From: Trypanosoma brucei
Taxonomy: Eukaryota
Direction of reading: 5' to 3'
Assembly (NCBI GenBank): GCA_000002445.1
Contig: CH464491.1
Coordinates: forward strand, 4,000,001-4,064,000
DNA: 64,000 nt
The position numbers and the translations under genes are program-made. The notes under the pieces are model-generated. The model was not told where the DNA came from and searched no databases. It was given only the letters and a program-made list of their open reading frames with translations. Below are positions 4,787 through 49,295 of the stretch, in pieces. How positions within the stretch are numbered: position 1 is the first letter of the stretch; every line of letters starts with the position of its first letter.

Positions 4787-7700
4787 TCATTTTGTTTGAT
4801 TTCGTGCATCCACGCCGATGGGGTGTAAACTCATAAGCTTATATAACCACTTGAAGCCACGCTCCATAGCTTGTTGGGTCCACTTATGAGTATCATGGGT
4901 AATGTCCTTTAGCCATGTTCGTCCACGTGAATCCTTCACTCGCTTGCAGAAGGTTTCTTTGCAACTTTCTTCCGCAAGGCTCCGCATTAGCGTTAAGTTC
5001 ATCAGCGCTGTCAACTCTCCTATGTGTTTAATTCCGTCGAGCGCATTACGGCGGACAATGTGAGAAAGAAGTTGGTGCATAATGCCCGCGTACGACCGCA
5101 CTTCGAGAAACCAATCAGCAGTTTGTATAATAAATCTCGTACAGGAATCGTCTTGTTCCCCCTCAGTCTGCACTTCCGGCGCGGGTTCTTCTTTCATAAA
5201 GTATTCAATGCAACCCTCGAGGTCAGAGTCGAATCGGACATAGGAAGGTAGGACATGCTCGGCTAACGTCCGTGTTGTTAAAAGCATACCATAATCGATG
5301 TGGAATATAGCACCACTCGGATGAATCATAACATTCTCACGATGTCGATCACCGATTGCAAATATATAATTCAGCAATATGAAAAACTTTGCGGAGCACA
5401 TGAAACACTCACGGGCAAGAGCAGCTGATTTTTGACTATCGAAGTCTTTAACTATCAAACTATTAGGTTGTCCACACTGATGTCCCGCTCCTCGTACCCT
5501 TTCATGAAGTTGAGGTTCCGACACCGAGTCCCCCAGCTGGCCTTGTGTCTTCTCAAGTGACACAAGGTGCTGAAGCAGGCGACCCTCTTTGTCCTTTCCA
5601 ATCACACGGTGAATTGTCTGCCCGTCCTTTACCACCTCTATCAAACCCGAAGACGGCGAAAGCAAAATAACGCGATACGTGGGAAGGACCACGTTGCCTA
5701 TTTGCTTGTAGAGCACCCACCGCAAAAACCGCGAGGTGACACACATCACTTTATCCTTTTCAAGGTTTTCCCTCTTGACAAGAATACCCCGCGTCACACC
5801 TTCTGCATCAACGAGCGGAATCGAAACAGGCCGTTGACTAGATTCCATTATCTTGATACCCCCCAAGTCGATGTGTGTTATAACCACACTACTGTCAAAC
5901 GGAAACAGCATAGGCGATACGGCACACAGCCCATTGCGTTCCTGCGCAATCCTCGATGAAGTTGACAAACAACCAGAGACGGATTCGCCGGTCGTTTCCG
6001 CCAAACCCCCCATTAGCCCACTGTTCGAGAGCTGAGTAACAAGCGCCCTCTGATACTCCCTGGCATCCCCACCCACCGGGACAAGATTCACCTCAGGTGT
6101 GATCAAGTTTAAAAACTTAAGTGTATTGAGAAATTTCTGATGTGATTCCGGGAATGTGTCAGCGTTTCTTTCAATGACGCGCTCCTGTAGTGTGCGGTAG
6201 CTGAATTCATTGACCCTCATTCGCGCTGACGCCTCTTGACAAATAACGATCGCCAACTGTGGATCGAGCTTCGACAAGGAGAGTAGAACGGACACAACAC
6301 GGGGCTGGCAGCTCTCGAGATCAAAGATATCCAACAGGAGCAACACAACACATTCTCGTATGCACGTATCCAGCGACGTAATCCAATCTCGCAGCAGGTG
6401 CTTTGTCACTATTTTCCGTATTTTTTCCGCTGTTGCATGGCCTTGTGGTGCACGGTGCAAACACTCCAGAATTTTGATACCAAAGAACGGTGGTAGCATC
6501 CGACCGCAAGTGCGTGTGCACAACATATACCAGTGGCTCAATGGCGGCTTCCAATAGAAGTCACGAAGCTGTGGTGACATTGGCGGCGGTGCGGCTCCCT
6601 TTGCCGTTTGCTCGATTGCTGCGCAGGCCTTCTCAACAAGTTCATTGTTCTCCCAGTCAATAGATATGAAGAGAAATATGAGAGGCTCGGGGTGGCCAAC
6701 CAAAAGATTAACGCTACTGGCAAGGATCTGTGCTGTCCGTTTTGGTATCTTCATGTTCCACATGTTCTCGTAGAGAGATGATCTGTAGTCACTGAGGCAC
6801 AACTCGGCTGCAGCCCTCCACTGCTCGTTGACGGTACGTAAGAGTGCGATATCCACGATAGATAGGCCGGCACAAACGAATGTGGTGCAAAGAAATGTGT
6901 GTTTATTTATCATCATTGCTTGATCGTAGCACCTCTTGCATGCGTGACGCATTCTGCCCTCCTCCGGTTGACCAGGCTTACTTAACTTGGCCAATGACTT
7001 GTCTAGCATCCATGACGTGCACTGCTCACACATGCGCCGGCCACAGCAACGGCAGTTACGCGCCCGAACCGCAGCAAACAACAGAGCCGGCCATGAGGAG
7101 AAAGATCTCTTGCACTCTGAGCACGTCTTAGCCGAGTCTTCCCCCTCCCACACAGGGTTCTGGTAAAGGGTGTGGCCTTTTTTTGCGAAGTCCTCCCCAA
7201 GATACGATGCTTCAGTCATAGTCGTCGAACTGGGGTCAATGGATTGCGTCAAATCCCCAACGTGATAAAATTCGGGATAGAAATAGCGATCCTTCTTCAA
7301 CCATGCCACACATGGGAGCTGATGGTTGGATTTGTCAGCTCCCGTGGCTATTAGCACATCTTTTGATGGCTGGAGCGACCGTGGCTGGGGCGAACCCGGT
7401 TCAGCACTGCCACCACCGATTCTAAATGCAGTCATGACCTTCTCCCGGAAAGCTAAGACTTCACATAACTTCTCTTTGCTGTTTAATGACGCAAGCGAAC
7501 GGATATCAGTGTCACAAAACACTTCCTCCTTGTATATTCGACCAAATTCACCACAAAGGACGGCAAACGTTTTTTCCATTTCTAGACGCGCACTTAACTC
7601 TAAAACCTCCATAAATAATTCCCTGTTGCGTGTCAATTCGCACGCATTGTAGCACGATACGGTTCCGTTCCGGGACAATGTTGTCTCGGAAAAAAAAACA

Positions 7701-8269
7701 CAAGCCTGGCTGTCTTCTCTATGTGGTGCCGCGCTCGTGGAAAAAGAAGACAAAACTTCGTCATCTGCTTCCGACATTCTCGACTTAACATCAGCGCGGG
7801 TCTGACGCCGAGCACGGGAGAGTTTTGAACCTCTCAGATCTAACGCTACTATCCTTTTTAACTCCTCTATGGCAACTTGAGAGCCAAATTCAAGCTGTAC
7901 TGGTTGCTTCTGAGATATCAGTCGCTTGAGATAAGCGCTCTCAGCGAAGTCCAGTGCGCAGTGGGTCCCGTCTCCAAGAATCACATCTACCGCAAGCATG
8001 TCGAACTCCTGTGTGGAATCCCGTACTCCATCTGCGTCCCGAGGTAAATCGGCGCCCACACCATCAGTCGGACGGCCCGGCAGTGGCTGCTCATACGAAG
8101 TCACGGAAACTTCCGCCGACTGGGTCATCAAATCTCGGCTGCCTCCACACACCGCGACGAAATTATAGTAAACAGGGGAAAAGAAAAAACAAACGGGGGA
8201 AAAGTAGTTAAACACAGAAAGTATCGCTAGTGATGGGACTCGAATTATCGACAGGGGATATATACACAT
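4787..8269 (-). CDS. FYVE zinc-finger-containing phosphatidylinositol 3-/4-kinase family protein (1160 aa)
   Basis: C-terminal lipid-kinase catalytic signature 'AIGDRHRENVMI...GAIFHIDYGMLL' (the DRH..N catalytic loop and DFG-like activation loop of the PI3K/PI4K fold). Mid-protein Cys cluster 'CSECKRSF...ARNCRCCGRRMCEQC' consistent with a FYVE/zinc-finger. Long unbroken ORF. Confidence 0.8.
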   Translation of the reverse strand: MCIYPLSIIRVPSLAILSVFNYFSPVCFFFSPVYYNFVAVCGGSRDLMTQSAEVSVTSYEQPLPGRPTDGVGADLPRDADGVRDSTQEFDMLAVDVILGDGTHCALDFAESAYLKRLISQKQPVQLEFGSQVAIEELKRIVALDLRGSKLSRARRQTRADVKSRMSEADDEVLSSFSTSAAPHREDSQACVFFSETTLSRNGTVSCYNACELTRNRELFMEVLELSARLEMEKTFAVLCGEFGRIYKEEVFCDTDIRSLASLNSKEKLCEVLAFREKVMTAFRIGGGSAEPGSPQPRSLQPSKDVLIATGADKSNHQLPCVAWLKKDRYFYPEFYHVGDLTQSIDPSSTTMTEASYLGEDFAKKGHTLYQNPVWEGEDSAKTCSECKRSFSSWPALLFAAVRARNCRCCGRRMCEQCTSWMLDKSLAKLSKPGQPEEGRMRHACKRCYDQAMMINKHTFLCTTFVCAGLSIVDIALLRTVNEQWRAAAELCLSDYRSSLYENMWNMKIPKRTAQILASSVNLLVGHPEPLIFLFISIDWENNELVEKACAAIEQTAKGAAPPPMSPQLRDFYWKPPLSHWYMLCTRTCGRMLPPFFGIKILECLHRAPQGHATAEKIRKIVTKHLLRDWITSLDTCIRECVVLLLLDIFDLESCQPRVVSVLLSLSKLDPQLAIVICQEASARMRVNEFSYRTLQERVIERNADTFPESHQKFLNTLKFLNLITPEVNLVPVGGDAREYQRALVTQLSNSGLMGGLAETTGESVSGCLSTSSRIAQERNGLCAVSPMLFPFDSSVVITHIDLGGIKIMESSQRPVSIPLVDAEGVTRGILVKRENLEKDKVMCVTSRFLRWVLYKQIGNVVLPTYRVILLSPSSGLIEVVKDGQTIHRVIGKDKEGRLLQHLVSLEKTQGQLGDSVSEPQLHERVRGAGHQCGQPNSLIVKDFDSQKSAALARECFMCSAKFFILLNYIFAIGDRHRENVMIHPSGAIFHIDYGMLLTTRTLAEHVLPSYVRFDSDLEGCIEYFMKEEPAPEVQTEGEQDDSCTRFIIQTADWFLEVRSYAGIMHQLLSHIVRRNALDGIKHIGELTALMNLTLMRSLAEESCKETFCKRVKDSRGRTWLKDITHDTHKWTQQAMERGFKWLYKLMSLHPIGVDARNQTK

Positions 8270-29970: not shown

Positions 29971-32900
29971 TTAGAACCAGCTATTTTTTTGCTTCTGATT
30001 TAACTTCCGGGCCAATGCCTCAAACGTGGTCGCTTCCTGCGCCAACTCACGCGATTTACTTTCAATTTGGGAAATTTTTTCACCTCGCTCATGCACCTTG
30101 ACTTCGTTCTCCCTCATCATCTGCAGCGCCTCGGTCACACTGACGTTCTCCCGCGCGGCGACAGCCTTGAGCTCGCTGTACCGGCTTCCTCTCCTTTCCT
30201 CGCTTCCCTCCCTTTCAGATCTCCTTTGGGACAGGACCGCTCCGTCTCTCCCTCTCTCAACAATGGAATCGGGCCGAGGGTGCTGTGGTGCAGCCCCCTC
30301 CATCTTTTTCACCAAGACATTTGTTTCAATCTTCGTAGCTGCCTCCTCCCAGGACTGTGTGGTCAACCGTTTCAGCAGCCCCTGCTCTTGCTTTACTGCC
30401 GGCGGGGGTGGCAAAAACTGCAAGTAAGACCGGAAGGTTGGTGGTGCGGGTACGTGGCGGATGCCTTCCAAAGGTTCCGCAGTCAAACGAAGCTGGTCAC
30501 TAACATTGCTTTCAGCTGAAACGATAAGATGTCCAAGTGCTCCCGACACTCCTACCACGTAGATGTGAAGCCCACTTCCTTCTATGTAGTGTGTGTGGAG
30601 GCGGAGGTCGTTTTCATCACAAAGACAGAGCATCGTATGCTCCGCCAGTCGCTGACCACTCTCGAGGTCTAATACGTTGAACCATCGCCATCCATTTGCG
30701 TCCCGACTCATCACGACCACCACGCGGAGAGACATGCAAACCCCCACATGCTCAACGGAGCGTCCCCGCCCCACCACAGGGGGTTGCATGCGGTTCGATG
30801 GAGCTTCTCCCGACAAAAGCCGCTCAGCAAGATATAAGTGAACCTTGCGTCCATTCCAAAGAACAACCGTTGTGTCAGGCGGGGAGTCTTCACCCAGTAC
30901 GTTTCTCAGGCGGCTTCTTTCCTCTTCCTGTTTTTCCTGCTCGTCTTCTGCATGAAGATCACACTGCAAGGCATCATAGGGCCATCCGGGATTCACTTCC
31001 ACCGCGACAATTCGACTACCTGGTGTGACAACTCCTCTCAAGGTGTACTCGCCGTCTGCACTCACAACCACTTCCCCACCAGAGACAACAACACTCAGGC
31101 GAAGGTCTTTTGAATTAGACGAGGGGAGCAATGTCCACTCCGTATCGGTCCCACCAACTCTCCCGTACCATAAACCTCCGGGGGGTTCTGCACACCACCG
31201 TAGCTCAACAGCAAAAATGACGCGGCCGAATACATCGCGGAAACTGACGGTGCCTCGAAAATCAGAATTTTTCTCGGCACTGGGGTCGCTTTTACCATCT
31301 GAAACATCGGCATGGGGAGCTCTAACCACAAGGCTGGCGGCCCCTGCCGATACCGAAAACCGTGGAGTTGAACTGCACAACATGACTTTGTCGTAGCTCC
31401 ACCTACCATCATCCTCCCGGTGATAGCCGAGCATCTGCATGTCGGACATGTTCCAGATTATTAGCCCTCGATCGTTTGAGAGAGTACAAAACAAGGCCAA
31501 AAAGCTGTTCTTACCCTCACAAACAGGGCCAGTACTGCCGGCTGAACAACTTCGACCCATCCAAACTGTGTCAAAAGATGTTACAGATGCGCCCGCTGGA
31601 AATAGGCCTCCCGGATAATGAACCATGGCGGGCGCATTCCCTTCCCCAGTGACCCCGCCGCTTAGGTCAACGATGACCAAGTTCCCATTACGCAGTTGCA
31701 GAAGGATGCTCATCCCACCACGCACCAACTGGAAGGCTTGCGGTGTAAGTTCCCGCTGTTCAATTCGGCAGTCTGCCAACTTTGCGGTCCGCGCGATAAT
31801 CTCAGCTTCTCCATCTTGTCCATCGTCCCCGACACTAGCTCCGCCAAATATGAGTTGCTCTTTTGAGAGGGTCATAATATGTTCCACATGTGGTGGTGAG
31901 AATCGCACGGCATTTACTGATACCCCCATTTCGTCAGCCAAAACGCGTAGTATAAACTCAGTCCTGCAAGGATGCTTTGGAAGGGCTTCCTCGAGTATGA
32001 CGACCGCCGAGCCCGTAGGCAATGACGCGCGGGCGTTAGCAGCGGTATTCTGTTCGATTACAGTAGCCGGTACTGGGAGACACTCATTGGTTAGGGGAAG
32101 GAAGCATACAGCCCCAGTAGCCGAATACGGAACCATACCCAGAAGTATTTCTTTCTGTAGTCCCTTTCCTTCCACATCGCCTTCGCACTCCAAGCAGGCT
32201 AGGACAGTAGCCCATGGATCTTCCGGGTCTGGTTGTAAAGAAGCGCCATGCCAAATGGCTCTGGTAACCTCCGCGGGGGGGGACACCAGCAACATTTCAT
32301 CCCACGGAAAGGGTTCGGGCATGACGTTTCTTAACGGGACAGCGGACTCCACATTTCGTTGATATCGTGAGCGCCGTACCAAAAGAGGGCCCAGGTCTTC
32401 AGATAGCACAAGAAGTGTGTCCAAGTCCGAGTCCTTCCATTCGCTCAACCAGTAACCCGGCCCAACGCATGGAATGACACGGCAGAGGTCAAGTGATGAT
32501 GATTCATCGCCTTCACACTGCAGCGGCAGGATTTTCGCCTTTATGTGTGACAAAATGTCCTCCCGCTGAATTAATCGCTTCTCTTCCAAGTTAATCACAA
32601 GTTCCACAATATCACAAGTGGAGTGCAGCAAAAAATGCAGGGGCGACTTCTTCTCGGACCGCGCACCATGTGGTGGGTCGCTGGAGTGCGCGATGTACAT
32701 GCCGGTAGACGACACCACTTCGTCGTCTGGTCCCCCGACCGGGGAGCAAGGACGGCATCCGGTTTGTACACTCCACATGAGTGCCACTGACCTTTCCTTG
32801 TCTTTCTTGCCGTTTTCCGCCCATATGTAAAGGGCGGAAGCGTCAAACGCCGCGGCAACAACGAAGGAAGCTCCAGGGGTATACCTGCATGCCGTAATAC

Positions 32901-33642
32901 CACACCCCGTTTGGGGTTCTGGCAGGGAAAAGAAACGACTGAGACGATTTTCGTCCAAATACCACTTGCACACTCCAGCCGCACCGGCGACAACCGCAAT
33001 AAATGTATTCGGATTACTCGGGCAGCTATTCATAGAAAGCACGTAGCCTCGTGGTGCCCACTCACTTGAAGCTGCTGAGAAAAAGGGGCGGCAAAGATTC
33101 ATTGTGCTCGTTGTTAGTGCCGCCCACACCAACTGCTGAGTTGAACCACTTTCCTGTAGCCTCCAGTACATAACCGTACCATCCTCACAGCCTACTGCGC
33201 CCCACGTCACACCCTGCGGTACGTGAAGACTGGTAAACAGCACCCCCCTTTTCCCGCATGGGGACAACGCAGAAGAGATCCCATGAAATGCGTAGTCGAG
33301 AAGCACCAGCCGCTCCGGGGAGAGCAGCAGCACACTTGAAGTTCCAGAAAAGATGCTACAGTCAATCCAACGGACGCAGTTTGGGACCTGCAGCAGCATC
33401 TGCCGCCTACCACGCGCAACAAGCAGTGCAGGCACGTTATTGCCGACGCATAGGACAACTTGGCGAACCGGGTCATGGGCACAAAGATGATATGAAGTGT
33501 AATCCACCGTTTCATCCACGCACTGCATTTGGGCCCGCTTCAGGGTCGCTGCTTCGGGGTCACCTGCCTCGGTCTTGAACGCCGTTACGTCCGAAGGATT
33601 CAGCCATCGCATCAAATTTTCGAACATCTCCAAGTTACCCAC
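29971..33642 (-). CDS. Tomosyn / Lgl (lethal giant larvae) family protein with C-terminal R-SNARE-like motif (1223 aa)
   Basis: C-terminus 'ALQMMRENEVKVHERGEKISQIESKSRELAQEATTFEALARKLNQKQKNSWF' aligns with the VAMP/synaptobrevin R-SNARE layer pattern (..[33 protein letters not shown].WW), with the central Arg in 'HERGEK'. The long N-terminal region has repeated GxxDG/WD-like beta-propeller character, as in tomosyn/Sro7/Lgl. Confidence 0.7.
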   Translation of the reverse strand: MGNLEMFENLMRWLNPSDVTAFKTEAGDPEAATLKRAQMQCVDETVDYTSYHLCAHDPVRQVVLCVGNNVPALLVARGRRQMLLQVPNCVRWIDCSIFSGTSSVLLLSPERLVLLDYAFHGISSALSPCGKRGVLFTSLHVPQGVTWGAVGCEDGTVMYWRLQESGSTQQLVWAALTTSTMNLCRPFFSAASSEWAPRGYVLSMNSCPSNPNTFIAVVAGAAGVCKWYLDENRLSRFFSLPEPQTGCGITACRYTPGASFVVAAAFDASALYIWAENGKKDKERSVALMWSVQTGCRPCSPVGGPDDEVVSSTGMYIAHSSDPPHGARSEKKSPLHFLLHSTCDIVELVINLEEKRLIQREDILSHIKAKILPLQCEGDESSSLDLCRVIPCVGPGYWLSEWKDSDLDTLLVLSEDLGPLLVRRSRYQRNVESAVPLRNVMPEPFPWDEMLLVSPPAEVTRAIWHGASLQPDPEDPWATVLACLECEGDVEGKGLQKEILLGMVPYSATGAVCFLPLTNECLPVPATVIEQNTAANARASLPTGSAVVILEEALPKHPCRTEFILRVLADEMGVSVNAVRFSPPHVEHIMTLSKEQLIFGGASVGDDGQDGEAEIIARTAKLADCRIEQRELTPQAFQLVRGGMSILLQLRNGNLVIVDLSGGVTGEGNAPAMVHYPGGLFPAGASVTSFDTVWMGRSCSAGSTGPVCEGKNSFLALFCTLSNDRGLIIWNMSDMQMLGYHREDDGRWSYDKVMLCSSTPRFSVSAGAASLVVRAPHADVSDGKSDPSAEKNSDFRGTVSFRDVFGRVIFAVELRWCAEPPGGLWYGRVGGTDTEWTLLPSSNSKDLRLSVVVSGGEVVVSADGEYTLRGVVTPGSRIVAVEVNPGWPYDALQCDLHAEDEQEKQEEERSRLRNVLGEDSPPDTTVVLWNGRKVHLYLAERLLSGEAPSNRMQPPVVGRGRSVEHVGVCMSLRVVVVMSRDANGWRWFNVLDLESGQRLAEHTMLCLCDENDLRLHTHYIEGSGLHIYVVGVSGALGHLIVSAESNVSDQLRLTAEPLEGIRHVPAPPTFRSYLQFLPPPPAVKQEQGLLKRLTTQSWEEAATKIETNVLVKKMEGAAPQHPRPDSIVERGRDGAVLSQRRSEREGSEERRGSRYSELKAVAARENVSVTEALQMMRENEVKVHERGEKISQIESKSRELAQEATTFEALARKLNQKQKNSWF

Positions 33643-42413: not shown

Positions 42414-45400
42414 TTATCCTATGAATTTAAGTCTCAACTCGCGCCGTTGCTTCTTCTTGAACGGCCCTTGCCGTCCTTCCGCAGCAGCTTCTACAGTGGT
42501 ACCTTCTTCAACGGGGCCAAATTTAGCCCCGCAACCGCTGGGTGTCACGCCAAATGGATTAGTATAGCCATCAAACTTTTCGTCGCTGCGACCATTCACT
42601 GTTGCGTTATCGCGGGACTTAATCGGTGTGGAAACATCTTCCCCATCTCTACTGGATAATAAAAACGGTAGCTGCGGTAAAGTTGCAGCGTCCAACGTAA
42701 CTGGAGGCCTGACTTCTTGCTGTTTACGATATTTACTAAGAAGTACCGAAGAAGCAATGCCAGCCCCACCATCTACTGAACAGGATGAGCTCAATGGAGT
42801 ATCAGCAGTGGCTGTAAGCTTCTGACCGATACCACAAAGCGTCTTCCTTGAGTCGTTCACAAGGAGGAAACACGCCTCAAAAATGGGAGCGTCACAAACG
42901 TTAAGGGGTAACGACCTCAGCAAGCAGTACTGAAGTTTCTGCAAAGCTACAGTTAACTTTGCAACAGTGAAACCCGTCAGTTTCCCCCAAGCATCGAAGC
43001 GTTGGGAATACCACGAGCAAAGAGACGCCACTACCAAGATATTGTGGCGTAGCGCTTCAACGACCTCAACCAGCCGCCTGCTCTCTTCATCCCATACAGC
43101 TGTAAATGAAATCGCTCTTTGAAGTCCAACACCAACAACATCGCAAAGAGCCTTCAAGGGTCCAAAGGAAAACGGCAACTCGGGCGCAGAGCATTTAGAT
43201 TTCGACGTCACGGGAGAATAAAATTTATCATCAACAGATAATTTCGCACCTGGAACAATACCTAACTTTTTTGTAACATTCTGGATAAACAACATACGCT
43301 GCTGAGAAAGCACAACAGCATCCGATACGTCAAATTCAAACGAACGCAACTTGTCAAGCACGTTACGAACACCAACACGCAGTTGCTTCGCAACAGAACC
43401 ACGACGAAAAGACGACACAGCAGGGCAACCAACCAAAGAGAAAACGCCACGATCAGAACAAGAAAACTGACTAAAAACAGTATTCACCAACTGTTCTTCA
43501 TCCGAACAAAAGGATATTTTCATATCATCCACAAATAAACGACGAGACATATCAACAACATCAACATCAACTTCGCAACAGTACTGTTCCTTCCCTATAT
43601 CCACCAAACGCGTTACGCACATTTCAGACGCCTGTACACGTTCACGCTCATTTTGTAATTCAGTACGAAGTGATTCCACCTCATGGGTGTATCGAACACG
43701 CTGTTCCTCCATAGCTATCTCAAGAGTTGAAAGTTGTTCCCGATGCAATTTCTCCATACCTTCATGGTTCTCTTGTACAACTTTCTCAGACGCCTGTACA
43801 CGTTCACGCTCATTTTGTAATTCAGTACGAAGTGATTCCACCTCATGGGTGTATCGAACACGCTGTTCCTCCATAGCTATCTCAAGAGTTAAAAGTTGTT
43901 CCCGATGCAATTTCTCCATACCTTCATGGTTCTCTTGTACAACTTTCTCAGACGCCTGTACACGTTCACGCTCATTTTGTAATTCAGTACGAAGTGATTC
44001 CACCTCATGGGTGTATCGAACACGCTGTTCCTCCATAGCTATTTCAAGAGCTAAAAGTTGTTCCCGATGCAATTTCTCCATACCTTCATGGTTCTCTTGT
44101 GCAACTTTCTCAGACGCCTGTACACGTTCACGCTCATTTTGTAATTCAGTACGAAGTGATTCCACCTCATGGGTGTATCGAACACGCTGTTCCTCCATAG
44201 CTATTTCAAGAGTTGAAAGTTGTTCCCGATGCAATTTCTCCATACCTTCATGGTTCTCTTGTGCAACTTTCTCAGACGCCTGTACACGTTCACGCTCATT
44301 TTGTAATTCAGTACGAAGTGATTCCACCTCATGGGTGTATCGAACACGCTGTTCCTCCATAGCTATTTCAAGAGTTGAAAGTTGTTCCCGATGCAATTTC
44401 TCCATACCTTCATGGTTCTCTTGTGCAACTTTCTCAGACGCCTGTACACGTTCACGCTCATTTTGTAATTCAGTACGAAGTGATTCCACCTCATGGGTGT
44501 ATCGAACACGCTGTTCCTCCATAGCTATTTCAAGAGCTAAAAGTTGTTCCCGATGCAATTTCTCCATACCTTCATGGTTCTCTTGTGCAACTTTCTCAGA
44601 CGCCTGTACACGTTCACGCTCATTTTGTAATTCAGTACGAAGTGATTCCACCTCATGGGTGTATCGAACACGCTGTTCCTCCATAGCTATTTCAAGAGCT
44701 AAAAGTTGTTCCCGATGCAATTTCTCCATACCTTCATGGTTCTCTTGTGCAACTTTCTCAGACGCCTGTACACGTTCACGCTCATTTTGTAATTCAGTAC
44801 GAAGTGATTCCACCTCATGGGTGTATCGAACACGCTGTTCCTCCATAGCTATTTCAAGAGTTGAAAGTTGTTCCCGATGCAATTTCTCCATACCTTCATG
44901 GTTCTCTTGTGCAACTTTCTCAGACGCCTGTACACGTTCACGCTCATTTTGTAATTCAGTACGAAGTGATTCCACCTCATGGGTGTATCGAACACGCTGT
45001 TCCTCCATGGCTATTTCAAGAGCTAAAAGTTGTTCCCGATGCAATTTCTCCATACCTTCATGGTTCTCTTGTGCAACTTTCTCAGACGCCTGTACACGTT
45101 CACGCTCATTTTGTAATTCAGTACGAAGTGATTCCACCTCATGGGTGTATCGAACACGCTGTTCCTCCATAGCTATTTCAAGAGTTGAAAGTTGTTCCCG
45201 ATGCAATTTCTCCATACCTTCATGGTTCTCTTGTGCAACTTTCTCAGACGCCTGTACACGTTCACGCTCATTTTGTAATTCAGTACGAAGTGATTCCACC
45301 TCATGGGTGTATCGAACACGCTGTTCCTCCATAGCTATTTCAAGAGCTAAAAGTTGTTCCCGATGCAATTTCTCCATACCTTCATGGTTCTCTTGTGCAA

Positions 45401-48400
45401 CTTTCTCAGACGCCTGTACACGTTCACGCTCATTTTGTAATTCAGTACGAAGTGATTCCACCTCATGGGTGTATCGAACACGCTGTTCCTCCATAGCTAT
45501 TTCAAGAGCTAAAAGTTGTTCCCGATGCAATTTCTCCATACCTTCATGGTTCTCTTGTGCAACTTTCTCAGACGCCTGTACACGTTCACGCTCATTTTGT
45601 AATTCAGTACGAAGTGATTCCACCTCATGGGTGTATCGAACACGCTGTTCCTCCATAGCTATTTCAAGAGCTAAAAGTTGTTCCCGATGCAATTTCTCCA
45701 TACCTTCATGGTTCTCTTGTGCAACTTTCTCAGACGCCTGTACACGTTCACGCTCATTTTGTAATTCAGTACGAAGTGATTCCACCTCATGGGTGTATCG
45801 AACACGCTGTTCCTCCATAGCTATTTCAAGAGTTGAAAGTTGTTCCCGATGCAATTTCTCCATACCTTCATGGTTCTCTTGTGCAACTTTCTCAGACGCC
45901 TGTACACGTTCACGCTCATTTTGTAATTCAGTACGAAGTGATTCCACCTCATGGGTGTATCGAACACGCTGTTCCTCCATAGCTATTTCAAGAGCTAAAA
46001 GTTGTTCCCGATGCAATTTCTCCATACCTTCATGGTTCTCTTGTGCAACTTTCTCAGACGCCTGTACACGTTCACGCTCATTTTGTAATTCAGTACGAAG
46101 TGATTCCACCTCATGGGTGTATCGAACACGCTGTTCCTCCATAGCTATTTCAAGAGTTGAAAGTTGTTCCCGATGCAATTTCTCCATACCTTCATGGTTC
46201 TCTTGTGCAACTTTCTCAGACGCCTGTACACGTTCACGCTCATTTTGTAATTCAGTACGAAGTGATTCCACCTCATGGGTGTATCGAACACGCTGTTCCT
46301 CCATAGCTATTTCAAGAGCTAAAAGTTGTTCCCGATGCAATTTCTCCATACCTTCATGGTTCTCTTGTGCAACTTTCTCAGACGCCTGTACACGTTCACG
46401 CTCATTTTGTAATTCAGTACGAAGTGATTCCACCTCATGGGTGTATCGAACACGCTGTTCCTCCATAGCTATTTCAAGAGTTGAAAGTTGTTCCCGATGC
46501 AATTTCTCCATACCTTCATGGTTCTCTTGTGCAACTTTCTCAGACGCCTGTACACGTTCACGCTCATTTTGTAATTCAGTACGAAGTGATTCCACCTCAT
46601 GGGTGTATCGAACACGCTGTTCCTCCATAGCTATTTCAAGAGCTAAAAGTTGTTCCCGATGCAATTTCTCCATACCTTCATGGTTCTCTTGTGCAACTTT
46701 CTCAGACGCCTGTACACGTTCACGCTCATTTTGTAATTCAGTACGAAGTGATTCCACCTCATGGGTGTATCGAACACGCTGTTCCTCCATAGCTATTTCA
46801 AGAGCTAAAAGTTGTTCCCGATGCAATTTCTCCATACCTTCATGGTTCTCTTGTACAACTTTCTCAGACGCCTGTACACGTTCACGCTCATTTTGTAATT
46901 CAGTACGAAGTGATTCCACCTCATGGGTGTATCGAACACGCTGTTCCTCCATAGCTATTTCAAGAGCTAAAAGTTGTTCCCGATGCAATTTCTCCATACC
47001 TTCATGGTTCTCTTGTGCAACTTTCTCAGACGCCTGTACACGTTCACGCTCATTTTGTAATTCAGTACGAAGTGATTCCACCTCATGGGTGTATCGAACA
47101 CGCTGTTCCTCCATAGCTATTTCAAGAGCTAAAAGTTGTTCCCGATGCAATTTCTCCATACCTTCATGGTTCTCTTGTGCAACTTTCTCAGACGCCTGTA
47201 CACGTTCACGCTCATTTTGTAATTCAGTACGAAGTGATTCCACCTCATGGGTGTATCGAACACGCTGTTCCTCCATAGCTATTTCAAGAGCTAAAAGTTG
47301 TTCCCGATGCAATTTCTCCATACCTTCATGGTTCTCTTGTGCAACTTTCTCAGACGCCTGTACACGTTCACGCTCATTTTGTAATTCAGTACGAAGTGAT
47401 TCCACCTCATGGGTGTATCGAACACGCTGTTCCTCCATAGCTATTTCAAGAGCTAAAAGTTGTTCCCGATGCAATTTCTCCATACCTTCATGGTTCTCTT
47501 GTGCAACTTTCTCAGACGCCTGTACACGTTCACGCTCATTTTGTAATTCAGTACGAAGTGATTCCACCTCATGGGTGTATCGAACACGCTGTTCCTCCAT
47601 AGCTATTTCAAGAGCTAAAAGTTGTTCCCGATGCAATTTCTCCATACCTTCATGGTTCTCTTGTGCAACTTTCTCAGACGCCTGTACACGTTCACGCTCA
47701 TTTTGTAATTCAGTACGAAGTGATTCCACCTCATGGGTGTATCGAACACGCTGTTCCTCCATAGCTATTTCAAGAGTTGAAAGTTGTTCCCGATGCAATT
47801 TCTCCATACCTTCATGGTTCTCTTGTGCAACTTTCTCAGACGCCTGTACACGTTCACGCTCATTTTGTAATTCAGTACGAAGTGATTCCACCTCATGGGT
47901 GTATCGAACACGCTGTTCCTCCATAGCTATTTCAAGAGCTAAAAGTTGTTCCCGATGCAATTTCTCCATACCTTCATGGTTCTCTTGTGCAACTTTCTCA
48001 GACGCCTGTACACGTTCACGCTCATTTTGTAATTCAGTACGAAGTGATTCCACCTCATGGGTGTATCGAACACGCTGTTCCTCCATAGCTATTTCAAGAG
48101 CTAAAAGTTGTTCCCGATGCAATTTCTCCATACCTTCATGGTTCTCTTGTGCAACTTTCTCAGACGCCTGTACACGTTCACGCTCATTTTGTAATTCAGT
48201 ACGAAGTGATTCCACCTCATGGGTGTATCGAACACGCTGTTCCTCCATAGCTATTTCAAGAGTTGAAAGTTTTTCTTTATATTTTTTTTGTTCATTTTGT
48301 TTTTTCGTATTTAAGTTTTCAATGTGTTTATGGTGTTGCTGCTCTTTTGCCTTAATGATGTTTGAAAGTTCCTGTTCCCTTTCGCACTGTGCCGCTAATG

Positions 48401-49295
48401 TTAGTTTCATTGCTATTATTTGTTCTTGGTGGCTTGTTTGAATATCTGCGAGAGTTAGAGTGCCTTGTTTGACTTCTGCGGCTTCCGTATTTTGTATCAT
48501 GTCTCTTAGTGTTTGATGCAGTATCTTTATGTTTTCTCGTAAAGCTGCCTGTTCTTCTTTGTCTATATTATTTTCTTTTATTTTTATTTCTCGTAAACGT
48601 CGTTCGTACTCTTCTTTGGTTTTTGTCATTTCTATTTCCTTTTCTTGTAGTGTGAGTTGAGATTGTTGTAGCTGTGTTGTGGATCGTTGAAGTTTCCTTT
48701 CATGTTCGTGTAGTGCTGCCTTTAATGCACTATTTTCCTGTTGTATTCTTTCGTGTTCATTTTGCAGGATTGCCGTTAGTTGTGAATTTTCTTCATAGTT
48801 TTGAAGCTTTTGTCGGACGCTTTCTAGTTCCTTTACCGTGCTATCGCGCTCACACTTCGTTTTGTGGAATTCTTCTCGCAAGTGTTCAAGGTTAACATCT
48901 GTGTCTTTATAAGTAGTAAAACCCTGCTGCATTGTGTGCGGAGAAAGCGTGTGATCCATTGCGTCTGTCTCGCTAGGTGCTGAGCTGCCAGCGGTGCTCT
49001 CTGGAGCAAGTCCCTCTCGGCGCTTGTAATAATAAATTATGGTACGCCACAGCTTAGCGATGCGGTTTGCCGTTGCAGCTGCTTTGGGTGAGCCGTTAGG
49101 TAACGAAAGGTACGCTGTCAGTGATGTCAGCGCCATGTAAATATCGGCCATGGCTTCTGGTAAGTCATGCGCAGCGCTGCTTGTGAGTTTGTACTGTGCA
49201 TCCCTAAGCGAATTTCCAATTCGCGCTTCTATAGTCCTTCGACTGCCTTCGATATCGCTCGTGTTTTCTATTAACTGAGCGTCCTTGAAACTCAT
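42414..49295 (-). CDS. Giant repetitive protein (2293 aa): K/E-rich coiled-coil N-terminus, ~28.7 tandem 54-aa repeats, ~400-aa non-repetitive C-terminal domain
   Basis: Uninterrupted 6.9-kb ORF. Central array of 162-bp units encodes 'LEIAMEEQRVRYTHEVESLRTELQNERERVQASEKV(A/V)QENHEGMEKLHREQL(LA/ST)'. Units are >99% identical, with only 3-4 variable nucleotide positions. Confidence 0.85.
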   Translation of the reverse strand: MSFKDAQLIENTSDIEGSRRTIEARIGNSLRDAQYKLTSSAAHDLPEAMADIYMALTSLTAYLSLPNGSPKAAATANRIAKLWRTIIYYYKRREGLAPESTAGSSAPSETDAMDHTLSPHTMQQGFTTYKDTDVNLEHLREEFHKTKCERDSTVKELESVRQKLQNYEENSQLTAILQNEHERIQQENSALKAALHEHERKLQRSTTQLQQSQLTLQEKEIEMTKTKEEYERRLREIKIKENNIDKEEQAALRENIKILHQTLRDMIQNTEAAEVKQGTLTLADIQTSHQEQIIAMKLTLAAQCEREQELSNIIKAKEQQHHKHIENLNTKKQNEQKKYKEKLSTLEIAMEEQRVRYTHEVESLRTELQNERERVQASEKVAQENHEGMEKLHREQLLALEIAMEEQRVRYTHEVESLRTELQNERERVQASEKVAQENHEGMEKLHREQLLALEIAMEEQRVRYTHEVESLRTELQNERERVQASEKVAQENHEGMEKLHREQLSTLEIAMEEQRVRYTHEVESLRTELQNERERVQASEKVAQENHEGMEKLHREQLLALEIAMEEQRVRYTHEVESLRTELQNERERVQASEKVAQENHEGMEKLHREQLLALEIAMEEQRVRYTHEVESLRTELQNERERVQASEKVAQENHEGMEKLHREQLLALEIAMEEQRVRYTHEVESLRTELQNERERVQASEKVAQENHEGMEKLHREQLLALEIAMEEQRVRYTHEVESLRTELQNERERVQASEKVAQENHEGMEKLHREQLLALEIAMEEQRVRYTHEVESLRTELQNERERVQASEKVVQENHEGMEKLHREQLLALEIAMEEQRVRYTHEVESLRTELQNERERVQASEKVAQENHEGMEKLHREQLLALEIAMEEQRVRYTHEVESLRTELQNERERVQASEKVAQENHEGMEKLHREQLSTLEIAMEEQRVRYTHEVESLRTELQNERERVQASEKVAQENHEGMEKLHREQLLALEIAMEEQRVRYTHEVESLRTELQNERERVQASEKVAQENHEGMEKLHREQLSTLEIAMEEQRVRYTHEVESLRTELQNERERVQASEKVAQENHEGMEKLHREQLLALEIAMEEQRVRYTHEVESLRTELQNERERVQASEKVAQENHEGMEKLHREQLSTLEIAMEEQRVRYTHEVESLRTELQNERERVQASEKVAQENHEGMEKLHREQLLALEIAMEEQRVRYTHEVESLRTELQNERERVQASEKVAQENHEGMEKLHREQLLALEIAMEEQRVRYTHEVESLRTELQNERERVQASEKVAQENHEGMEKLHREQLLALEIAMEEQRVRYTHEVESLRTELQNERERVQASEKVAQENHEGMEKLHREQLSTLEIAMEEQRVRYTHEVESLRTELQNERERVQASEKVAQENHEGMEKLHREQLLALEIAMEEQRVRYTHEVESLRTELQNERERVQASEKVAQENHEGMEKLHREQLSTLEIAMEEQRVRYTHEVESLRTELQNERERVQASEKVAQENHEGMEKLHREQLLALEIAMEEQRVRYTHEVESLRTELQNERERVQASEKVAQENHEGMEKLHREQLLALEIAMEEQRVRYTHEVESLRTELQNERERVQASEKVAQENHEGMEKLHREQLSTLEIAMEEQRVRYTHEVESLRTELQNERERVQASEKVAQENHEGMEKLHREQLSTLEIAMEEQRVRYTHEVESLRTELQNERERVQASEKVAQENHEGMEKLHREQLLALEIAMEEQRVRYTHEVESLRTELQNERERVQASEKVVQENHEGMEKLHREQLLTLEIAMEEQRVRYTHEVESLRTELQNERERVQASEKVVQENHEGMEKLHREQLSTLEIAMEEQRVRYTHEVESLRTELQNERERVQASEMCVTRLVDIGKEQYCCEVDVDVVDMSRRLFVDDMKISFCSDEEQLVNTVFSQFSCSDRGVFSLVGCPAVSSFRRGSVAKQLRVGVRNVLDKLRSFEFDVSDAVVLSQQRMLFIQNVTKKLGIVPGAKLSVDDKFYSPVTSKSKCSAPELPFSFGPLKALCDVVGVGLQRAISFTAVWDEESRRLVEVVEALRHNILVVASLCSWYSQRFDAWGKLTGFTVAKLTVALQKLQYCLLRSLPLNVCDAPIFEACFLLVNDSRKTLCGIGQKLTATADTPLSSSCSVDGGAGIASSVLLSKYRKQQEVRPPVTLDAATLPQLPFLLSSRDGEDVSTPIKSRDNATVNGRSDEKFDGYTNPFGVTPSGCGAKFGPVEEGTTVEAAAEGRQGPFKKKQRRELRLKFIG
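43627..48270 (-). repeat. Coding tandem repeat: 162-bp unit x ~28.7 copies (54-aa protein repeat), two interspersed variant classes
   Basis: The unit beginning 'gacgcctgtacacgttcacgctcattttgtaattcagtacgaagtgattccacctcatggg...' recurs with exact 162-bp spacing from 43627 to 48163; the last copy is partial. Variants: 'agttgaaag' vs 'agctaaaag'; 'tgtgcaac' vs 'tgtacaac'; 'ctatctc' vs 'ctatttc'. Confidence 0.95.

What the first reader, a model, noticed from the sequence alone, without database searches (positions are those of the whole stretch)
4787..8269. Unusual domain combination: FYVE-type zinc finger fused to a PI3K/PI4K-type catalytic domain
The catalytic C-terminus carries the PI3K/PI4K-type 'GDRH..N' catalytic loop and 'HIDYG' activation loop. 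This is not the PIPK-type motif found in Fab1/PIKfyve, the usual FYVE-containing lipid kinase. A Cys-rich FYVE-like module ('CSECKRSF...RNCRCCGRRMCEQC') sits ~400 aa into the protein. A FYVE (PI3P-binding) domain on a PI3K/PI4K-fold kinase is an atypical architecture and may be lineage-specific, for example a kinase recruited to PI3P-positive endosomes.
Basis: partly seen in the sequence, partly recalled or inferred. Interest (0 to 1): 0.55.

Follow-up and report, generated by a model that had tools for sequence, protein, structure and literature searches.

The report
Known trypanosome FYVE-domain PI 3-kinase
The flagged ORF is a real but already described Trypanosoma brucei gene: a lipid kinase of the PI3K type that carries a degenerate FYVE zinc finger, belongs to an old family shared with giant viruses, oomycetes and slime moulds, and has never been studied experimentally.

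Summary
ORF 4787..8269 (- strand, 1160 aa) scores above Pfam's cut-offs for FYVE (residues 374-451) and PI3_PI4_kinase (828-1015). The catalytic Lys, DRHxxN and DYG motifs are intact.

The window is T. brucei TREU927 chromosome 11. The protein is XP_829591.1, almost certainly Tb927.11.15330 (old ID Tb11.01.6980). Published work already calls that gene an "atypical PI 3-kinase with a PI(3)P-binding FYVE domain" expected on endosomes (2008). Its variant FYVE and its orthology to Phytophthora PIK-D were noted in 2013.

The requested motif check fails. R(R/K)HHCR is RARNCR in T. brucei, so canonical PI3P binding is doubtful.

Three things may be new: an F-box-like segment after the FYVE, a conserved His/Cys cluster in the helical domain, and a probably spurious annotated N-terminal "TM helix".

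Verdict: already known, function still untested, interest about 0.3.

The parts
4787..8269 (-). Annotated ORF, 1160 aa. [quoted passage not shown] Inferred to be Tb927.11.15330 (old ID Tb11.01.6980).
   Evidence: literature PMC7595295, PMC2443814
8129..8269 (-). 47-codon hydrophobic N-terminal extension (MCIYPLSIIRVPSL...). This is the 'putative N-terminal TM helix' of the literature. It is probably untranslated 5' sequence.
   Evidence: Not conserved in orthologues, whose alignment starts at Met48. 64% pyrimidine, with a poly-pyrimidine tract followed by AG dinucleotides just upstream of ATG 8128. Inference, not shown.
7151..8128 (-). N-terminal region, residues 48-373, conserved within Trypanosoma and partly in the long metagenomic relatives. 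Fold unknown. Contains the conserved motif DLTQSIDP about 45 aa before the FYVE.
   Evidence: No Pfam hit, no PDB sequence hit, and low AlphaFold confidence.
6917..7150 (-). Variant FYVE zinc finger, residues 374-451. It has eight Cys ligands, a 7-residue hydrophobic insertion (SSWPALLFAAV) in front of the basic motif, and a degenerate basic motif RARNCR (7049..7066).
6749..6919 (-). F-box-like helical segment directly after the FYVE, residues 451-507 (…FLCTTFVCAGLSIVDIALLRTVNEQWRAAAELCLSDYRSSLY…).
   Evidence: A family profile (A7) hits only F-box proteins in the PDB, 20 of 20 hits, best E=0.023. Pfam F-box-like hits in two relatives fall below the cut-off. A kinetoplastid-only profile gives no hit. 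For T. brucei this rests on homology only.
5960..6748 (-). Helical (PIK/PI3Ka-like) domain, residues 508-770. It includes a conserved His/Cys cluster, H526, H579, C584 and C588 (6506..6694), which may be a third zinc site.
   Evidence: hhalign of the inter-domain region (residues 455-778) against the short giant-virus-like group: probability 98.6%, E=8e-16, 232 columns. Pfam PI3Ka is detected in 32 of 60 relatives. Helical in the AlphaFold model at pLDDT 80-98. Cluster statistics.
4829..5956 (-). PI3K/PI4K-type kinase domain, residues 772-1147. Landmarks: ATP-binding Lys832 (5774..5776), catalytic loop DRHREN 974-979 (5333..5350), DYG 992-994 (5288..5296), a divergent activation loop, and an amphipathic C-terminal helix at residues 1118-1145 (4835..4918).

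Best explanation
The ORF is the known T. brucei gene for 'PI3K 1' (Tb927.11.15330, old ID Tb11.01.6980). It encodes a catalytically intact lipid kinase with the helical-plus-kinase core of the PI3K type, structurally closest to the class III enzyme Vps34. Where Vps34 has its N-terminal C2 domain, this protein has a Trypanosoma-specific N-terminal region, a variant FYVE zinc finger and an F-box-like helical segment.

It is a fast-evolving kinetoplastid branch of an old FYVE-helical-kinase family. That family also includes giant-virus kinases (Mimivirus L615, Klosneuvirus and others), Phytophthora PIK-D and dictyostelid proteins.

Most likely mechanism (inferred, not shown): the FYVE module tethers the kinase directly to endosomal or flagellar-pocket-proximal membranes. 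Tethering is helped by the FYVE's long hydrophobic loop and by the amphipathic C-terminal helix. There the kinase phosphorylates the 3-OH of phosphatidylinositol or a phosphoinositide. It would do so without the Vps15/Beclin scaffold, which Vps34 binds through its C2 domain. This would give the endocytically very active bloodstream form a second, separately regulated 3-kinase.

T. brucei has lost both histidines of the R(R/K)HHCR motif. Membrane recruitment is therefore probably not canonical, pH-switched PI3P recognition. Because the activation loop has diverged, the lipid product is uncertain.
For: Identity. The ORF is 100% identical to XP_829591.1 on a 5.26 Mb T. brucei contig. That product name is paired with Tb927.11.15330 in PMC7595295, Table 1. 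PMC2443814 describes Tb11.01.6980 as a FYVE-bearing PI3K with an N-terminal hydrophobic helix, which fits this ORF.

Active kinase. Lys832, D974/R975/H976/N979 and D992 are invariant in 109 of 109 aligned family members.

Family membership. The inter-domain region is homologous to that of the short FYVE-kinases (hhalign 98.6%, E=8e-16). The full-length model matches Klosneuvirus, Yasminevirus and Catovirus PI3K models (E down to 1.7e-26, about 840 columns). One short relative lies on an IMG/VR contig beside TFIIS, an SNF2 helicase and minor capsid protein P8, and is clearly Vps34-like (181 versus 132 bits). A kinase-only profile scores the short group at about 135-160 bits, against about 102 bits for any PDB kinase.

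No C2 domain: Pfam finds nothing N-terminal of the FYVE.

Biology from the literature. The mRNA is 7.5- to 10-fold higher in bloodstream forms (PMC2443814) and about 2-fold higher in stumpy forms (PMC5879877). Location is listed as cytoplasm/endocytic (PMC7595295).
Against: No experiment on this protein was found: Table 1 of PMC7595295 lists no essentiality data and no reference for it.

Sequence alone does not assign the kinase to class III. The profile scores p110-gamma 101.9, Vps34 101.8 and mTOR 99.8 bits. The Vps34 'DPKP' activation-loop signature is absent.

The AlphaFold alignment was dominated by Vps34-like short relatives (87 of 109 sequences). This may bias the model towards Vps34.

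The FYVE lacks most of the residues considered essential for PI3P binding (the requirement is stated in PMC3593210). Membrane targeting through it is therefore an assumption.

Pfam PI3Ka is not detected in the T. brucei protein itself.

The link from this sequence to the TriTrypDB IDs is an inference from names and descriptions. No tool printed it.
Confidence: 0.6

Rival explanations
1. A canonical PI3P-binding FYVE recruits a PI3K/PI4K-type kinase to PI3P-positive endosomes, acting downstream of or in positive feedback with TbVps34, and the architecture is an invention of this lineage.
For: The Pfam FYVE hit is above the cut-off. All 8 Zn-ligand Cys are invariant. The modelled FYVE fold matches EEA1 and endofin. 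Location is listed as endocytic (PMC7595295). The same prediction was made in PMC2443814. The short relatives do carry a canonical R[RK]HHCR motif (85 of 87 have both His), so the feedback idea is reasonable for them.
Against: In T. brucei the motif is RARNCR: both His are lost and the second basic residue is Ala. The other Trypanosoma species have R[AP]SHCR. RVC is R-H-A-C, WxxD is WEGE, and there is a 7-residue insertion before the motif. These motifs are described as essential for PI3P binding (PMC3593210). The architecture is not lineage-specific (PMC3271019).
Confidence: 0.25
2. It is the trypanosome's class I/II-like PI3K and makes PI(3,4)P2 or PI(3,4,5)P3 rather than PI3P.
For: Brown and Auger report a second kinetoplastid PI3K 'intermediate in homology to Class I and II' (PMC3024228). 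The T. rangeli genome paper lists a 'PI3 Class I' model in T. cruzi and T. rangeli. PIP3 is reported in bloodstream forms (PMC7595295). The top single-sequence PDB hits are class I p110-delta, -beta and -gamma. The activation loop is not Vps34-like.
Confidence: 0.15
3. It is a PIKK/TOR-like protein kinase, as the 'tor2' names on the T. cruzi and T. conorhini orthologues imply.
For: Database names include 'phosphatidylinositol 3-kinase (tor2)'. The mTOR catalytic core scores almost as well as the PI3Ks against the kinase profile (99.8 versus 101.9 bits).
Confidence: 0.05
4. Its main role is as a scaffold or adaptor rather than an enzyme. For example, the F-box-like segment might engage Skp1/SCF, with the kinase domain being regulatory or vestigial.
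For: The F-box-like signal in the family profile hits only F-box proteins, 20 of 20. Two relatives carry a Skp1 domain above the Pfam cut-off. A FYVE-F-box pairing exists in the trypanosome protein TbFRP (PMC3593210).
Against: All catalytic residues are invariant across 109 sequences, which argues for an active enzyme. The F-box signal is marginal (best E=0.023) and is absent when only kinetoplastid sequences are used. No Skp1-like signal was found in the T. brucei N-terminus.
Confidence: 0.07

Closest known systems
Giant-virus FYVE-PI3K proteins (Mimivirus L615 / Q5UR69; Klosneuvirus KNV1 A0A1V0SL21; Catovirus, Yasminevirus, Faunusvirus and Pithovirus homologues) and the >100 metagenomic proteins of about 630-850 aa found here
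   Same: The domain order is the same: FYVE, F-box-like segment, helical domain, kinase. The inter-domain region is homologous (hhalign 98.6%). The H/C-C-C plus H cluster and the catalytic residues are invariant. The full-length model matches at E=1.7e-26.
   Different: The short group has a canonical R[RK]HHCR FYVE, a Vps34-type 'DPKP' activation loop and a clear class III sequence affinity, and mostly has no long N-terminal region. The T. brucei protein has a degenerate FYVE with a loop insertion, a divergent activation loop, about 325 extra N-terminal residues, and only about 24% identity in the kinase core.
Class III PI3K Vps34 (including TbVps34, Tb927.8.6210)
   Different: There is no C2 domain, which in Vps34 is the hub for the Vps15/Beclin complexes (established knowledge). 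A FYVE and an F-box-like segment take its place. The activation loop lacks the Vps34 signature. By sequence score the kinase is equidistant from class I, class III and mTOR.
Phytophthora infestans PIK-D and dictyostelid FYVE-PI3Ka-kinase proteins (D3BQ22, Q54UU9)
   Same: The literature reports the same FYVE plus PI3K/PI4K kinase architecture. PMC3593210 calls Tb11.01.6980 the T. brucei orthologue of PIK-D. PMC3271019 lists the dictyostelid proteins.
   Different: PIK-D has a large insertion inside its FYVE that the T. brucei protein lacks (PMC3593210). I could not fetch these sequences, so the comparison rests on the papers alone.
PIKfyve/Fab1 (PI3P 5-kinase; Tb927.11.1460 in T. brucei)
   Same: It is a FYVE-bearing phosphoinositide kinase of the endolysosomal system.
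   Different: It has an unrelated catalytic fold (PIPK, Pfam PIP5K). No such domain is present here.
TbFRP (FYVE - F-box - Ras-like GTPase of trypanosomes)
   Same: A FYVE is followed directly by an F-box(-like) element in a euglenozoan signalling protein (PMC3593210).
   Different: The TbFRP FYVE keeps all the canonical motifs and has a large insertion. Its effector is a GTPase, not a kinase.

Membership tests
FYVE zinc finger (Pfam PF01363) | HMM score above the curated gathering threshold | tested here: met
   37.4 bits against a cut-off of 27.8, E=2.8e-9, residues 374-451. No RING or PHD hit at E<=1.
FYVE zinc finger (Pfam PF01363) | Eight Zn-coordinating cysteines in four CxxC pairs, and the FYVE fold | tested here: met
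Canonical PI3P-binding FYVE | R(R/K)HHCR basic motif | tested here: not met
   RARNCR in T. b. brucei and T. b. gambiense; R[AP]SHCR in the other 7 Trypanosoma species. HMMER alignments to WDFY3, EEA1 and RUFY1 place it opposite RRHHCR/RKHHCR and show a 7-residue insertion just before it.
Canonical PI3P-binding FYVE | WxxD and RVC motifs | tested here: not met
   W374 is kept, but the Asp position is Glu (WEGE; Asp in only 2 of 8 Trypanosoma). RVC is R-H-A-C, the 'RxxC variant' already noted for Tb11.01.6980 in PMC3593210.
Canonical PI3P-binding FYVE | Specific binding of PI3P | not testable with these tools
   Needs liposome or lipid-overlay binding assays.
PI3K/PI4K catalytic domain (Pfam PF00454) | HMM above the cut-off, with ATP-binding Lys, DRHxxN catalytic loop and DFG | tested here: met
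   61.7 bits against 27.1. K832, D974-R-H-R-E-N979 and D992-Y-G. The K, D, R, H, N and D residues are invariant in 109 of 109 sequences.
PI3K-type helical+kinase core | Helical (PIK/PI3Ka) domain packed in front of the kinase domain | tested here: met
   Pfam PI3Ka is not detected in the T. brucei sequence itself. However, the region is homologous (hhalign 98.6%) to relatives in which PI3Ka is detected (32 of 60, best E=1.4e-24). The model also superposes on the Vps34 and p110 helical+kinase core over about 490-650 positions.
Class III PI3K (Vps34) | N-terminal C2 domain | tested here: not met
   No C2 or PI3K_C2 hit. A FYVE occupies the position in front of the helical domain.
Class III PI3K (Vps34) | Kinase domain and activation loop of Vps34 type | tested here: inconclusive
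PIKK protein kinases (TOR/ATM/ATR/SMG1) | FAT and FATC domains flanking the kinase, in a very large protein | tested here: not met
PIPK (Fab1/PIKfyve) | PIP5K-type catalytic domain | tested here: not met
   No PIP5K hit. The catalytic motifs are of PI3K/PI4K type.
FYVE-helical-kinase family (Mimivirus L615-like / PIK-D-like) | Collinear FYVE, helical and kinase domains with homology outside the two Pfam domains, and the shared His/Cys cluster | tested here: met
   hhalign E=8e-16 over 232 inter-domain columns. H526, C584 and C588 are invariant, and H579 is His or Cys in 109 of 109. BFVD full-length matches reach E=1.7e-26.
F-box | F-box profile match, or Skp1 binding | tested here: inconclusive
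   The family profile hits only F-box proteins, but weakly (best E=0.023). Pfam F-box-like in two relatives falls below the cut-off. A kinetoplastid-only profile finds nothing. Skp1 binding is not testable here.

The most novel reading that the evidence does not exclude
The FYVE-PI3K family, this T. brucei gene included, may carry two undescribed modules. One is an F-box-like three-helix segment fused to the C-terminal helix of the FYVE. The other is a conserved His-(His/Cys)-Cys-Cys cluster in the helical domain that could bind a third zinc. Some members add a bona fide Skp1-like domain in front of the FYVE. If the divergent N-terminus of the trypanosome protein is a cryptic Skp1-like domain, an intramolecular Skp1:F-box clamp could gate membrane binding or kinase activity. 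Recruitment of cellular Skp1/SCF is the alternative. Either would link phosphoinositide 3-kinase signalling to the ubiquitin-ligase toolkit in a way not described for any PI3K. The presence of family members in giant viruses, including a weak structural match in Bodo saltans virus, which infects a kinetoplastid, would also allow gene exchange between virus and host.
Probability: 0.15. Interest if true: 0.6.

Novelty: already known. Interest (0 to 1): 0.3.

Why it matters
T. brucei has only two annotated PI 3-kinases. TbVps34 is essential and well studied. This second one has no functional data, although its mRNA is strongly up-regulated in the bloodstream form, whose very high endocytic rate underlies immune evasion. 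It is far from the human PI3Ks (about 15% identity in structural alignments), so it could be a selective drug target.

What this analysis contributes is mostly a correction. The architecture is old and widespread, not a trypanosome invention. Its FYVE should not be assumed to read PI3P. The annotated N-terminal membrane helix is probably not translated. The 'tor2' names on orthologues are wrong. The possible F-box-like and zinc-cluster features are cheap to test and apply to the giant-virus enzymes too.

Tried and rejected
1. Word-indexed homologue searches with the ORF, the Trypanosoma alignment (A1) and an alignment of distant relatives (A4) found only Trypanosoma proteins or the query itself. 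The exhaustive profile search was needed to get further. Leishmania orthologues could not be named; only Angomonas deanei CAD2222933.1 was.

2. The first AlphaFold run, on 8 sequences, was unusable (pLDDT 44). The N-terminal 300 residues therefore remain unmodelled.

3. Synteny test: the neighbours of the long relatives P0026 and P0041 (L003-L005) share nothing with the window's neighbours. Their organisms stay unidentified.

4. Skp1-like N-terminus in T. brucei, an idea from reading the sequence: not supported. hhalign gave probability 0.4%, there was no Skp1 hit in the PDB and no Pfam hit.

5. The F-box-like signal with kinetoplastid sequences only gave no hit.

7. The afdb50 fold library was unavailable.

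8. The key papers Bahia 2009 (TryPIKinome) and Hall 2006 (TbVps34) are not held.

9. The neighbouring genes are functionally unrelated: an RRM/CSTF2-hinge protein, an importin-like HEAT protein and two ORFs without domains. This is expected in a trypanosome polycistron, so there is no operon-type context.

10. The RING/PHD alternative for the Cys cluster is rejected, since FYVE is the only zinc-finger family at E<=1.
Full report
**1. What is at the coordinates**

The window is trypanosome DNA: long intronless ORFs, nearly all on the - strand. ORF 4787..8269 (-) encodes 1160 aa. [quoted passage not shown]

Pfam finds exactly two families. PI3_PI4_kinase covers residues 828-1015 (E=1.3e-16, 61.7 bits, cut-off 27.1). 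FYVE covers residues 374-451 (E=2.8e-9, 37.4 bits, cut-off 27.8). Seven other Trypanosoma species have orthologues at 44-56% identity, all with both domains.

**2. It is an already described gene**

[quoted passage not shown] Its location is given as cytoplasm/endocytic, with no essentiality data and no reference. The only other PI3K listed is TbVps34, Tb927.8.6210 (PMC7595295).

Koumandou et al. [quoted passage not shown] They cite Hall et al. 2006 (PMC2443814). Microarray ratios were 7.5 and 10.3.

A 2013 paper notes that Tb11.01.6980 and its orthologues have a variant FYVE with RxxC instead of RVC. It calls the gene the T. brucei orthologue of Phytophthora infestans PIK-D (PMC3593210). RNA-seq shows about 2-fold higher expression in stumpy forms (PMC5879877).

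I infer that the window ORF is this gene, from the product name, the chromosome, the architecture and the hydrophobic N-terminus. No tool printed the TriTrypDB ID for this sequence.

**3. The architecture is not lineage-specific**

A profile of the eight Trypanosoma proteins was searched against 1.84 billion representative proteins. Beyond the orthologues it found two groups.

- About a dozen long relatives of 900-1460 aa. One is Angomonas deanei CAD2222933.1.
- More than 100 proteins of about 630-850 aa. These have an N-terminal canonical FYVE (R[RK]HHCR) and a kinase with a Vps34-type loop, 'HIDFGYILGxDPKP…MRIT'.

A relative of one short protein lies on a 53 kb IMG/VR contig. Its neighbours include TFIIS, an SNF2-like helicase, an ERCC4 nuclease and minor capsid protein P8, so the contig is from a giant virus. 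Pfam reads that protein as FYVE + PI3Ka + PI3_PI4_kinase. It is clearly class III-like: Vps34 scores 181 bits against 132 bits for class I.

The literature agrees. Mimivirus L615 is FYVE + PI3_PI4_kinase, dictyostelids have FYVE-PI3Ka-kinase proteins, and further examples occur in 'Stramenopiles and Excavata' (PMC3271019). PI3_PI4_kinase is also listed among FYVE-associated domains (PMC2837644).

The resemblance is homology along the whole protein, not just two shared domains. Four results show this.

- The region between FYVE and kinase in the Trypanosoma proteins aligns with that of 87 short proteins at hhalign probability 98.6%, E=8e-16, over 232 columns.
- A kinase-only profile scores the short group at about 135-160 bits. 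No kinase in the PDB scores above about 102 bits.
- In the 109-sequence alignment, the invariant or nearly invariant positions are the eight FYVE cysteines, the catalytic residues, and H526, C584 and C588. Position 579 is His in 21 of 22 long or Trypanosoma sequences and Cys in 86 of 87 short ones.
- Among 60 relatives, Pfam finds the kinase in 60, FYVE in 57 and PI3Ka in 32.

**4. Kinase class**

By sequence alone the kinase is ambiguous. The profile scores p110-gamma 101.9, Vps34 101.8 and mTOR 99.8 bits.

A second AlphaFold model was built for residues 348-1160 from the 109-sequence alignment. It is confident (pLDDT 87.9, pTM 0.88).

- Foldseek ranks human Vps34 helical+kinase structures first (E=1.3e-17, about 650 columns, TM-score normalised to the target 0.70-0.77). 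Class I enzymes follow closely, and no PIKK is in the top 50.
- Against predicted viral structures, the whole model matches Klosneuvirus, Yasminevirus, Faunusvirus, Catovirus and Pithovirus PI3Ks (E=1.7e-26 to 3e-21, about 815-843 columns).

One caveat applies. The alignment was dominated by Vps34-like sequences and may pull the model towards Vps34.

The kinase is neither PIPK nor PIKK (no PIP5K, FAT or FATC domain). The 'tor2' names on some orthologues are mis-annotations. The activation loop (HIDYGMLLTTRTLAEHVLPSYVRFDSDLE) has neither the Vps34 signature nor the class I signature, so the lipid product cannot be read from the sequence.

**5. The FYVE is a variant**

HMMER alignments to solved FYVE domains (WDFY3, EEA1, RUFY1) show a 7-residue insertion, SSWPALL…, just before the basic motif. 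They place RARNCR opposite RRHHCR/RKHHCR.

Column statistics give the following.

- The second basic residue is Ala or Pro in all Trypanosoma.
- The first His is Ser, or Arg in T. brucei.
- The second His is kept in 7 of 8 species but is Asn in T. brucei. T. b. gambiense is the same.
- The Asp of WxxD is Glu in 5 of 8 species.
- RVC is R-H-A-C.

**6. How it most likely works**

Shown:
- an intact active site;
- a PI3K-type helical+kinase core closest to Vps34;
- no C2 domain;
- a zinc-finger membrane module in its place;
- an amphipathic C-terminal helix (hydrophobic moment up to 0.57), comparable to the membrane-binding C-terminal helix of PI3Ks (established knowledge).

Inferred:
- The enzyme is a self-targeting lipid 3-kinase acting on endosomal or flagellar-pocket-proximal membranes.
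- It is independent of the Vps15/Beclin scaffold, which Vps34 needs through its C2 domain (established knowledge).
- It is up-regulated in bloodstream forms, where endocytosis is most intense.

For the short viral and protist members, a PI3P-binding FYVE on a PI3P-making kinase suggests positive feedback. For T. brucei the FYVE changes make this doubtful. I put about 0.95 on the identity and family assignment and about 0.5 on the mechanism. The rivals are canonical PI3P recruitment, a class I-like product, a PIKK-type protein kinase, and a scaffold role. They are weighed in the structured fields.

**7. Things that may be new**

(a) *An F-box-like segment.* The segment directly after the FYVE is residues 451-507. 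A profile of 42 family sequences for this segment hits only F-box proteins in the PDB: 20 of 20 hits at E<=10, each aligned on its F-box (Skp2, FBXW8, FBXO22, KDM2A/B, FBXL2/3, Dia2). The best E is only 0.023. Two relatives have sub-threshold Pfam F-box-like hits at the same place. Two others have a Skp1 domain above the cut-off in front of the FYVE. With kinetoplastid sequences alone the signal vanishes. I could not show that the T. brucei N-terminus is Skp1-like. A FYVE-F-box pairing is already known in TbFRP (PMC3593210).

(b) *A His/Cys cluster.* H526, H579, C584 and C588 form a conserved cluster with a His-to-Cys swap between subgroups. It looks like a structural zinc site. I could not measure its geometry.

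(c) *The N-terminal extension.* The 47-residue hydrophobic extension is probably not translated.

**8. Verdict**

The gene, its odd architecture and the endosome hypothesis have been in the literature since 2006-2008, and the architecture is widespread. Novelty: already known. Interest is modest at 0.3, because function is still untested and the family has unexplored features.

Noticed in passing
window 8129..8269 (-): [quoted passage not shown] They are 64% pyrimidine, are not conserved in orthologues, and contain a poly-pyrimidine tract plus AG dinucleotides just upstream of ATG 8128. The likely true start is Met48. The T. cruzi marinkellei model P0003 has a similar spurious Phe/Leu-rich extension.
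   Followed up: partly
window 6506..6694 (-), residues H526, H579, C584, C588: A His/Cys cluster in the helical domain is conserved in all 109 aligned family members. Position 579 is His in 21 of the 22 Trypanosoma and long-relative sequences and Cys in 86 of the 87 short giant-virus-like sequences. It may be a third zinc site, which is not a known feature of PI3Ks.
   Followed up: partly
window 6749..6919 (-); relatives P0056 res 120-151, P0063 res 115-143, P0070 res 140-170, P0096 res 192-226: There is an F-box-like segment immediately after the FYVE across the family: the PDB profile hits are exclusively F-box proteins, best E=0.023. Two short relatives have a Skp1 dimerisation domain above the Pfam cut-off, N-terminal to the FYVE.
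   Followed up: partly
L001:8001-10046 (IMGVR_UViG_3300009506_002728); P0042-P0171: A large, diverse family of FYVE-PI3Ka-kinase proteins of about 700 aa, Vps34-like, is at least partly encoded by giant viruses. Neighbours on L001 include TFIIS, an SNF2 helicase, ERCC4, minor capsid protein P8 and an unusual PAS-histidine-kinase/response-regulator hybrid. The BFVD search also gave a weak, low-TM match (E=4.5e-10) to a Bodo saltans virus zinc-finger protein; that virus infects a kinetoplastid.
   Followed up: partly
window 7151..7290 approx. (-), motif DLTQSIDP about 45 aa upstream of the FYVE: The short motif (D)LT(Q/H)S(I/V)DP is conserved in all Trypanosoma orthologues and in the long metagenomic relatives P0024, P0025, P0026 and P0030. 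Its function is unknown.
   Followed up: no
window 29971..33642 (-): A 1223-aa ORF combines a strong DUF7914 match (E=6e-199) with a C-terminal synaptobrevin (R-SNARE) domain. This is an unusually long N-terminal extension for a SNARE.
   Followed up: no
window 42414..49295 (-) and 43687..48441 (+): A 2293-aa ORF has no real Pfam domain and a 1584-aa open frame on the opposite strand. It coincides with a strong shift in AT skew and GC skew at about 44-50 kb, which suggests a repetitive or compositionally biased coding region.
   Followed up: no
database names and literature for the orthologues: Annotation is inconsistent. The T. cruzi, T. conorhini and T. cruzi marinkellei orthologues are named 'phosphatidylinositol 3-kinase (tor2)' although they lack FAT and FATC domains. 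One review (PMC6071061) labels Tb927.11.15330 as 'Vps34', whereas other papers give TbVps34 as Tb927.8.6210.
   Followed up: partly
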